From: Eledone cirrhosa
Lineage: Eukaryota
DNA length: 64,000 nucleotides
Assembly: GCA_964016885.1 (NCBI GenBank)
Contig: OZ024746.1
Location: forward strand, 58,962,001 to 59,026,000
Direction: 5' to 3'
Positions 16,458 through 17,600 of the stretch are shown here, piece by piece (position 1 is the first letter of the stretch; every line of letters begins with the position of its first letter). The notes below the pieces were generated by a model. It was not told the DNA's origin, did no database searches, and worked only from the letters and a program-made list of their open reading frames with translations. The translations under genes were made by a program, and so were the position numbers.

Positions 16458-17079
16458 CTACTGTACGTCTGTATACATATGTGTATGTACGTATACATAC
16501 ATACTTACATTTAAGTAAGTGCCGTTCTAAGAGTGAGAAATGAAATTTCGTTTCATTCTATTCCATTTATCGTTTTCGGTGTGCCCGGCCGACTGAACTC
16601 ACTCGATATGCAAATTAGGCTGCTCATCCGTTAATATGCATAAGGAAAGTATATACTTTCAGACGTTCAACCATCTGGCAGGAAGGTATACGATGCTGAC
16701 GATAGCTAATAAGCTTGAAACTAGTACAGCGTTCCTTTGTCAGTGTTGAACAAAAAGGTGACGTGGTTGCCTAAACACTGTACGGCGTAATTCGGGCTGT
16801 TTGTTTGTTTACAAACAAACAAACCGAGCATGATAATAAATTTTCGGTAAACCCATACGTGCATATATATATGTGTGCATGTATGTATATATATACATAC
16901 TACTGTACGTCTGTATACATATATGTATGTACGTATACATACATACATACTTACGAAGACAAACATAGAATATTCGAAAATATTCTGTATGTTTATAATA
17001 AACATTTTGAAGACCCAATCGCTATAGAATAGAATACGTCACGTATTACAATTTGAGATTCTCGATAAAAGTAAGGGAA

Positions 17080-17122
17080 GTAATCTACGCGTTTCATTCT
17101 TGTTAGAAATCTTCAGGATTAC
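17080..17122 (-). ncRNA. Type I hammerhead ribozyme (F3, inverted arm)
   Basis: Reverse complement: gtaatc CTGAAGA tttctaacaagaat GAAAC gc GTA gattac. Confidence 0.9.
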
Positions 17123-17365
17123 ATATCCAATACTTTTATCGAGAACGACACAGTTAGAGACTTCTTCAAAATGTTTATTATAAACATACAGAATATTTTC
17201 GAATATTCTATGTTTGTCTTCACATATATATCGCTATTTCAGAGCATTAAATCCAAATTCTAATTTCTGCCGGACCGGCTACCGCTCTATCAAACCAGTT
17301 CCTGTACACAGCTAAGTATTCTATAAGTCTCTAGCTGTGTCGTTCTCGATAAAAGTATTGGATAT

Positions 17366-17408
17366 GTAATCCTGAAGATTTCTAACAAGAATGAAACGCG
17401 TAGATTAC
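17366..17408 (+). ncRNA. Type I hammerhead ribozyme (F3) with palindromic stem III ACGCGU and extended stem I
   Basis: gtaatc CTGAAGA tttctaacaagaat GAAAC gc GTA gattac; stem I extended by tctcgataaaagta/tacttttatcgaga. Confidence 0.92.
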
Positions 17409-17600
17409 TTCCCTTACTTTTATCGAGAATCTCAAATTGTAATACGTGACGTATTCTATTCTATAGCGATTGGGTCTTCAAAATGTTTATTATAAACATA
17501 CAGAATATTTTCGAATATTCTATGTTTGTCTTCACATATATATCGCTATTTCAGAGCATTAAATCCAAATACATACTTACATTTATATATATATATATAG

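What the first reader, a model, noticed from the sequence alone, without database searches (positions are those of the whole stretch)
16955..17570. F3 has a head-to-tail junction consistent with an approximately 310-nt circular or tandem retrozyme template
Seen: the 3'-terminal 96 bp (17163-17258) is followed directly by a full unit (17259-17570) ending in the same sequence. An inverted arm precedes it, and acatacttac flanks both sides (possible TSD). No coding capacity was seen. Established: animal non-LTR retrozymes are tandem monomers of a few hundred nt processed by HHRs into circular RNAs, and PLE pLTRs are partial tandems. Inference: a candidate cephalopod circRNA retrozyme.
Basis: partly seen in the sequence, partly recalled or inferred. 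Interest (0 to 1): 0.7.

Follow-up and report, generated by a model that had tools for sequence, protein, structure and literature searches.

The report
Hammerhead mini-retroelement with Penelope-type insertion scars
A 616-base non-coding insertion built from a 312-base repeat unit that carries a predicted self-cutting hammerhead RNA belongs to a family whose unit also runs end-to-start in other genomes' sequence data, and it was likely pasted in by Penelope-like retrotransposon enzymes; the kind is already known from animals, and whether it makes RNA circles is untested.

Summary
16955-17570 consists of an inverted arm (unit 67-275), 96 nt of unit end and a full 312-nt unit, inside a perfect 10-12-nt target duplication. 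The unit is non-coding and carries a type I hammerhead (17366-17408) whose listed variants spare the core and keep the stems. A second copy (41896-42374, 97% identical) has the same inverted layout. The end-to-start junction is not locus-specific: contigs of two labelled organisms show no depth drop across it, one listed contig bridges it, and the unit closes on itself. The layout (partial tandem, inverted 5' copy, 37-nt tail, TA-rich target) is the published Penelope-like (PLE) insertion signature. Best reading: a non-autonomous, retrozyme-type mini-PLE family. Corrections: 17258|17259 marks where reverse transcription likely starts, not where a circle would be ligated (predicted 17402|17403). 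This locus has only one sense hammerhead, so it could not itself release a monomer. A circle is not required, since an uncleaved multimer gives the same DNA. Expression, cleavage, host and helper element are all unshown. New member of a known kind.

The parts
16945..16954 (+). Left copy of target-site duplication (10 nt; 11-12 nt with the ambiguous bases)
16955..17163 (-). Inverted 5' copy = unit positions 67-275, lacking the 37-nt tail; 208/209 identical to 17325-17533
17080..17122 (-). Mirror copy of the hammerhead inside the inverted arm
17163..17258 (+). Partial upstream unit (unit 217-312), 96/96 identical to 17475-17570; 1-2 nt microhomology with the inverted arm
17259..17570 (+). Full 312-nt unit, non-coding, 34% GC, structured (z -5.0 against 100 shuffles)
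17342..17430 (+). Hammerhead-bearing hairpin; 16-bp outer extension of helix I with a compensatory U-A/C-G change at 17356/17416
   Evidence: (z -7.3)
17366..17408 (+). Type I hammerhead: 6-bp helix I, 4-bp helix II, short palindromic helix III; U.U instead of G-C at 10.1/11.1; predicted cut after GUA at 17402
17534..17570 (+). 37-nt 'tail' present only on the main copy; inferred to lie between two reverse-transcription start sites
   Evidence: compared with PMC11167929 and PMC8557442
17571..17580 (+). Right copy of target-site duplication
16499..16508 (+). Single copy of the same 10-mer in a paralogue of the target (empty-site equivalent)
41896..42166 (-). Second insertion of the family, main copy = unit 38-308, 263/271 identical; does not reach the unit junction
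42166..42374 (+). Second insertion, inverted arm = unit 69 to about 277-285, running into (TA)n; 209/209 identical to its main copy; carries a hammerhead at 42205-42247

Best explanation
This is a 616-base insertion made of 1.3 head-to-tail copies plus one inverted partial copy of a 312-base non-coding unit with a predicted hammerhead ribozyme, and it was likely copied into an AT-rich site by the enzymes of an autonomous Penelope-like retrotransposon (a retrozyme-type, non-autonomous PLE). Shown: the layout, the target duplication, the hammerhead motif, a second copy, and end-to-start continuity of the unit in other genomes' data. Inferred steps: (1) tandem source loci are transcribed into more-than-unit RNA; (2) a PLE RT/GIY-YIG protein binds the structured 3' part of the unit and nicks both strands of an AT-rich target about 10-12 nt apart; (3) one cDNA starts at about unit 308-312 and here ran 408 nt, through the intact hammerhead site and on into the preceding unit, while the opposite-strand cDNA starts about 37 nt upstream (unit 275) and ran to unit 67; (4) the two are joined by 1-2 nt microhomology, giving inverted arm + partial tandem + tail. 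For the template I put about 60:40 on an uncleaved multimeric transcript over a re-ligated 312-nt circle. The hammerhead is predicted to cut only when two copies pair through the palindromic helix III. This locus, with one sense hammerhead, is likely a dead-end copy.
For: Layout and TSD. Two loci have near-matching ends: main copies end at unit 312 and 308, inverted arms at 275 and 277-285. Contig loose ends run into (TA)n or (A)n behind 17231 (7 contigs in X1, 9 in X2) and behind 17257/17259 (1 each in X2), i.e. the same two end zones. Junction: summed contig depth at 17251/17257/17263 is 299,579/305,709/307,032 (X1), 271,441/310,942/258,651 (X2) and 933,515/834,321/746,490 (X4). 5 of the 8 listed X4 pieces cross 17258|17259, and 1 of 8 (17195-17328) meets the tool's 31-letter bridging rule. 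The other end of the permuted reference closes too (17471/17474 to 17163: 3,287 + 98 of 9,053 X23 reads; contigs in X1, X2, X4). All 8 listed variants inside the hammerhead spare the core and keep the pairs (rough chance 1e-4). The published PLE signature is partial tandem, inverted 5' copy, 30-40 bp tail and microsatellite targets (PMC8557442). A purified PLE protein cut and extended both strands and started at two sites bounding the tail (PMC11167929). Xenopus retrozymes are related to pLTRs (preprint). Two degenerate PLE ORFs with Hydra-clade motifs lie in the window.
Against: No listed contig spans a whole unit. None of the 8 listed pieces of X1 or of X2 crosses the junction (3,359 pieces not shown), so for organism A the crossing rests on depth and on 'from_end' values of 29 and 23 letters at 17257. 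The tool warns that summed depth is no copy number. Unitigs break at branch points, so a minority of copies with another upstream sequence (a PLE ORF) could be invisible. The raw-read run is cut at AATT exactly at the junction (17256, 17262) and cannot test it. No helper element shares sequence with the unit: of 9 other hammerhead neighbourhoods in the window only 58712- scored above shuffles (z 3.4). The hammerhead lacks the G10.1-C11.1 pair called highly conserved (PMC4209133). 11 variant rows were not shown, and the tolerance classes were defined after seeing the data. The two-strand, two-start model comes from one in vitro study of a different clade.
Confidence: 0.8

Rival explanations
1. 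Within the best explanation, the first reader's version: tandem source loci are cut by paired hammerheads at GUA, ligated into an abundant 312-nt circular RNA, and that circle is the template that the PLE RT runs round more than once.
For: The unit closes on itself. Size, GC and helix sizes match animal retrozymes that accumulate as circles (PMC7229834; PMC4209133). The core is conserved and the stems covary. The helix III palindrome can pair between two copies (-7.5 kcal/mol).
Against: DNA cannot separate a circle from an uncleaved multimer. In the anole PLE, unprocessed RNA was the dominant substrate and ribozyme mutants still inserted. Only 1 of 9 Xenopus retrozyme dimers cleaved in vitro. 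The 10.1/11.1 pair is U.U.
Confidence: 0.33
2. The 312 nt are just the 3' end (pLTR) of a longer autonomous PLE, and the 96-nt duplication arose once, by template jumping or by insertion into its own pLTR.
For: The second copy in the window has no junction. 5'-truncated, inverted PLE ends are common in this window. PLEs can target their own pLTR.
Against: There is no depth drop across the junction in three contig sets from two labelled organisms, and a bridging contig carries 9 differences, so it is not this locus. The share of laid contigs running on into unlike sequence was 0 in X1, X2 and X4.
Confidence: 0.1
3. A DNA-level repeat (fold-back MITE, or satellite spread by recombination or rolling-circle DNA) in which the hammerhead is a passenger.
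For: The element has long inverted arms, and many palindromic repeats lie in the window.
Against: The arms are not terminal in a fixed way: the inversion points differ between the two loci and one arm lacks the tail. The 10-12 nt duplication, the 5' truncation and the RNA-level covariation point to retrotransposition.
Confidence: 0.05

Closest known systems
Metazoan non-LTR retrozymes (Cervera and de la Pena 2020, PMC7229834: passages and sections 14, 17 read; Li, Clavereau and Pollet 2026, bioRxiv 10.64898/2026.07.22.740005: parts 1-3 of 5 read, supplements closed)
   Same: Non-coding unit of 150-450 nt, GC under 50%, type I hammerhead with 6-bp helix I, 4-bp helix II and short palindromic helix III, head-to-tail arrangement, TSD longer than 4 bp.
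   Different: This locus has 1.31 units with one sense hammerhead; U.U replaces G10.1-C11.1; no RNA evidence. It carries an inverted 5' copy and a 37-nt tail, which the parts of those papers that I read do not describe for retrozymes.
Penelope-like element insertions (Craig et al. 2021, PMC8557442: passages and section 11 read; Frangieh et al. 2024, PMC11167929: parts 1-2 of 4 read; Cervera and de la Pena 2014, PMC4209133: parts 1-2 of 4 read)
   Same: Partial tandem, adjacent inverted 5'-truncated copy, 30-40 bp tail at one end, AT or (TA)n target, hammerhead upstream of the RT start sites.
   Different: No RT/GIY-YIG ORF in the unit; the tandem period is 312 nt instead of about 3 kb.
Non-autonomous Chlamys PLEs such as MRC1 (PMC8557442, passage)
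   Same: Short non-autonomous PLEs that make pLTRs and multicopy head-to-tail insertions.
   Different: Green algal; that paper reports Chlamys elements as mostly lacking canonical hammerheads and sharing 3' sequence with known autonomous partners, whereas no partner is identified here.

Membership tests
Metazoan non-LTR retrozyme | Non-coding repeat unit of 150-450 nt, GC below 50% | tested here: met
   312 nt, 34% GC, longest ATG frame 34 codons
Metazoan non-LTR retrozyme | Type I hammerhead motif in the unit | tested here: met
   Core and helices I-III present; variants spare the core; sub-threshold Rfam HH9 hit; 10.1/11.1 is U.U, not G-C
Metazoan non-LTR retrozyme | [quoted passage not shown] 2026) | tested here: not met
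   1.31 forward units with one sense hammerhead at 16955-17570; less than one unit at 41896-42374
Metazoan non-LTR retrozyme | Family occurs as head-to-tail dimers or multimers elsewhere in the genome | tested here: inconclusive
   The unit closes end-to-start in contigs of organisms A and B, but no listed piece spans even one whole unit; no genome is held
Metazoan non-LTR retrozyme | TSD longer than 4 bp | tested here: met
   10-12 nt at the first locus with an empty-site paralogue; not discernible at the second locus, whose two flanks are TA runs
Metazoan non-LTR retrozyme | Self-cleavage and accumulation as circular RNA | not testable with these tools
   Needs transcription assays and RNase R or northern data
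Metazoan non-LTR retrozyme | Loop 1-loop 2 tertiary contacts of canonical type I hammerheads | not tested
   Only secondary structure was computed
Penelope-like element (autonomous) | ORF with RT and GIY-YIG endonuclease between the pLTRs | tested here: not met
   No ORF in the unit; the element works like a PLE insertion but is not an autonomous PLE
PLE-type insertion (non-autonomous derivative) | Partial tandem with an adjacent inverted 5'-truncated copy | tested here: met
   Both at the first locus; inverted copy only at the second
PLE-type insertion (non-autonomous derivative) | 30-40 bp tail at one end only | tested here: met
   37 nt at the first locus; about 23-32 nt at the second, blurred by (TA)n
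PLE-type insertion (non-autonomous derivative) | Sequence shared with the pLTR of an autonomous PLE | tested here: inconclusive
   None in the window; no genome or repeat library available to search further

The most novel reading that the evidence does not exclude
The family is an expressed 312-nt circular-RNA retrozyme of this (probably cephalopod) lineage, whose individual insertions record the PLE mechanism directly: two fixed reverse-transcription starts 37 nt apart, two-strand priming and more-than-unit copying. That would be insertion-level proof that PLE enzymes, possibly of the Hydra clade, mobilise retrozyme circles, with a hammerhead that works without the G10.1-C11.1 pair.
Probability: 0.25. 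Interest if true: 0.58.

Novelty: new member of a known kind. Interest (0 to 1): 0.36.

Why it matters
That PLE proteins mobilise animal retrozymes has been proposed from co-occurrence (PMC7229834) and from pLTR phylogeny, with the mechanism left open (2026 preprint). This young insertion carries the PLE-specific scars on a closed 312-nt hammerhead unit, so it is a compact natural substrate for testing that link and for asking whether the template is a circle or an uncleaved multimer. It does not by itself reveal a new kind of element. Searches for 'retrozyme' with 'cephalopod' or 'octopus' and for 'Octopus' with 'hammerhead ribozyme' listed no paper whose title or abstract start describes such a family; subscription papers, Repbase/Dfam and the preprint's supplements were not seen.

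Tried and rejected
No own genome is held, so copy number and multimers could not be counted. No RNA holder was listed; this is no evidence on expression. Exact-pattern scans found nothing in metagenome contigs, viral contigs or prokaryote genomes. The raw-read run X23 shows molecule ends at 17256, 17262 and 17435. These are exactly the three AATT sites of the reference, so I rejected them as element ends and read them as restriction cuts. Its loose-end consensus before 17262 is the reverse complement of the one behind 17432 and is absent from the window; I treat it as a probable ligation partner and not as an upstream ORF, without proof. Rfam miRNA hits at 16903-16970 are microsatellite noise. 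A Poseidon-like ORF start inside the hammerhead was considered, but the longest frame is 34 codons. Lunse et al. 2017 is not held and is known only through review passages. The earlier-findings index had nothing for this sequence or genome.

Full report
Observation. On the + strand, 16955-17163 is the reverse complement of 17325-17533 (208 of 209), 17163-17258 equals 17475-17570 (96 of 96), and 17259-17570 is a 312-nt unit. In unit coordinates the insertion reads: inverted 275 to 67, then 217-312, then 1-312; 616 nt in all, 1.31 units forward. A 10-nt sequence flanks both sides (11-12 nt if two ambiguous bases are included). The 10-mer occurs 8 times in this microsatellite-rich window, so the match alone is weak. 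However, a 91%-identical paralogue of the target 440 nt upstream has one copy followed by the same letters, which is what an empty site looks like. Near-identical arms and a perfect duplication indicate a young insertion (inference).

The ribozyme. The unit holds a type I hammerhead at 17366-17408: helix I of 6 bp, CUGAAGA, helix II of 4 bp, GAAA, a palindromic CGCG helix III and GUA, with the cut predicted after 17402. It sits on a 16-bp outer helix (z -7.3 against 200 shuffles); the whole unit folds at z -5.0. A strict scan found 7 such motifs in the window (4 of this family) and none in 60 shuffles. Rfam gives only a sub-threshold HH9 hit and nothing at gathering level. The helix sizes match what Cervera and de la Pena call canonical metazoan type I, which needs a second copy to cut. 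The pair closing helix II is U.U, not the G-C they call highly conserved. The two window copies differ at 8 of 271 sites, including a compensatory U-A to C-G change at 17356/17416; organism A reads carry C (2,174 of 2,193) and G (1,961 of 2,001) there. All 8 listed variants inside the hammerhead are G.U-preserving, in loop II, at the free N7, or turn the U.U into A-U. The rough chance is 1e-4, with the caveats that 11 variant rows were hidden and the classes were set after the fact. Selection on the RNA structure is therefore likely; activity is untested.

A second copy. 41896-42374 is a head-to-head insertion: unit 38-308 on the minus strand and unit 69 to about 277-285 on the plus strand, with arms 209 of 209 identical and TA runs on both sides. 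It has no end-to-start junction. Both loci thus have a main copy ending at 308-312 and an inverted copy ending about 25-37 nt earlier.

Is the junction private to this locus? No genome is held. I laid three contig sets and one raw-read run (4 of the 24 runs listed; three samples, three studies, two organism labels) on the permuted unit 17163-17474, which puts the junction inside. Summed contig depth does not fall across 17258|17259 in X1, X2 or X4. Five of 8 listed X4 pieces cross it; one (17195-17328, 9 other letters) has more than 31 letters on each side. None of the 8 listed pieces of X1 or X2 crosses it, but 25 and 19 contigs carry a variant at 17257, with up to 29 and 23 letters to their end, which I read as crossing. 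The reference's two ends also join (3,287 + 98 of 9,053 raw reads; contigs in all three sets), so the unit is closed. Loose ends into (TA)n or (A)n lie behind 17231 and 17257-17259, the same two end zones as in the window. Limits: no listed piece spans a whole unit, depth is not copy number, 199 loose-end rows were hidden, and the raw reads are cut at AATT at 17256, 17262 and 17435, so they say nothing about the junction. The majority alleles of organisms A and B differ from each other and from both window copies, so the family has lineage-specific subfamilies (inference).

How it likely works. Craig et al. describe PLE insertions as partial tandems, often with an adjacent inverted 5'-truncated copy and a 30-40 bp tail at one end, biased to microsatellites. 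Frangieh et al. showed that a purified PLE protein cuts and extends both target strands, starts internally at two sites that bound the tail downstream of the hammerhead, and does not need ribozyme cleavage. Applied here (inference): a helper PLE protein nicked both strands 10-12 nt apart; one cDNA began at unit 312 and ran 408 nt, the other began at 275 and ran to 67; they were joined through 1-2 nt microhomology. The long cDNA crosses both the intact GUA site and the unit end, so its template was a circle or an uncleaved multimer. I put 60:40 on the multimer, given the U.U pair, the anole result and 1 of 9 Xenopus dimers cleaving, against the conserved core and the abundance of circles in coral, mussel and axolotl. 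With one sense hammerhead, this locus cannot release a unit-length RNA.

Helper. Two frameshifted ORF pairs (1507-2774 +, 9353-11205 -) are related to each other (37% over 140 aa). They show the CxCX5C, CxxC and CxH motifs that Craig et al. give for Hydra-clade PLEs, which target (TA)n. Pfam did not recognise them. They lie beside other hammerhead families and share no sequence with this unit, so the helper is not identified.

Comparison and verdict. The family works like a non-autonomous PLE and has the size, composition and ribozyme of an animal non-LTR retrozyme. This locus fails the two-hammerhead criterion, and circles and cleavage are untested, so I file it as retrozyme-type and not as a demonstrated retrozyme. 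The PLE origin of retrozymes is already proposed, and non-autonomous tandem PLEs are known. What this locus adds is a clean insertion-level example. PMC13282606 (passages) lists recently active Penelope families in Octopus vulgaris, and none of the five passages shown concerns such units. Supplements of the preprint and repeat libraries were not seen and may already hold this family. New member of a known kind; interest 0.36.

Noticed in passing
window 17325/17327 (unit 67 and 69): The inverted arms of both insertions stop within 2 nt of each other, inside the hairpin at about 17305-17341. This could be an RT stall site, an RNA 5' end, or chance (n = 2).
   Followed up: no
window 57060-57668, 59875-60190, 15081-15366: A second non-coding hammerhead family (G-C closed helix II, 85-87% between loci) with the same layout: head-to-head arms 99.6% identical, one arm about 55-58 nt longer, in (TA)n.
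   Followed up: partly
whole window: 14 type I hammerhead-like motifs from about 8 families in 64 kb, against a mean of 0.03 in 60 shuffles; many long palindromes may be inverted PLE ends.
   Followed up: partly
window 1-3960 and 8150-11205: Two degenerate PLE-like elements with RT then endonuclease and Hydra-type CxCX5C/CxxC/CxH motifs. The first has a 1.5-kb inverted copy of its 3' part; the second has a hammerhead at 8358-8288 that recurs at 56684-56754.
   Followed up: partly
window 58712-58664 (-), related copies near 14910-15080 and 58180-58311: Another hammerhead family with U.U at the base of helix II; the only neighbourhood with weak similarity to this unit (z 3.4).
   Followed up: partly
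run X4, loose ends at 17360 and 17415: An organism B subfamily appears to change both arms of the outer helix together (A-U to G-C and G.U); linkage on one molecule is not shown.
   Followed up: no
window 21823-22016 and at least 15 related copies (e.g. 42735-43121, 61675-62065): An abundant ~190-nt SINE-like repeat, sometimes in tandem.
   Followed up: no
window 40528-40926: 159-nt tandem of 2.5 copies with no hammerhead motif detected.
   Followed up: no
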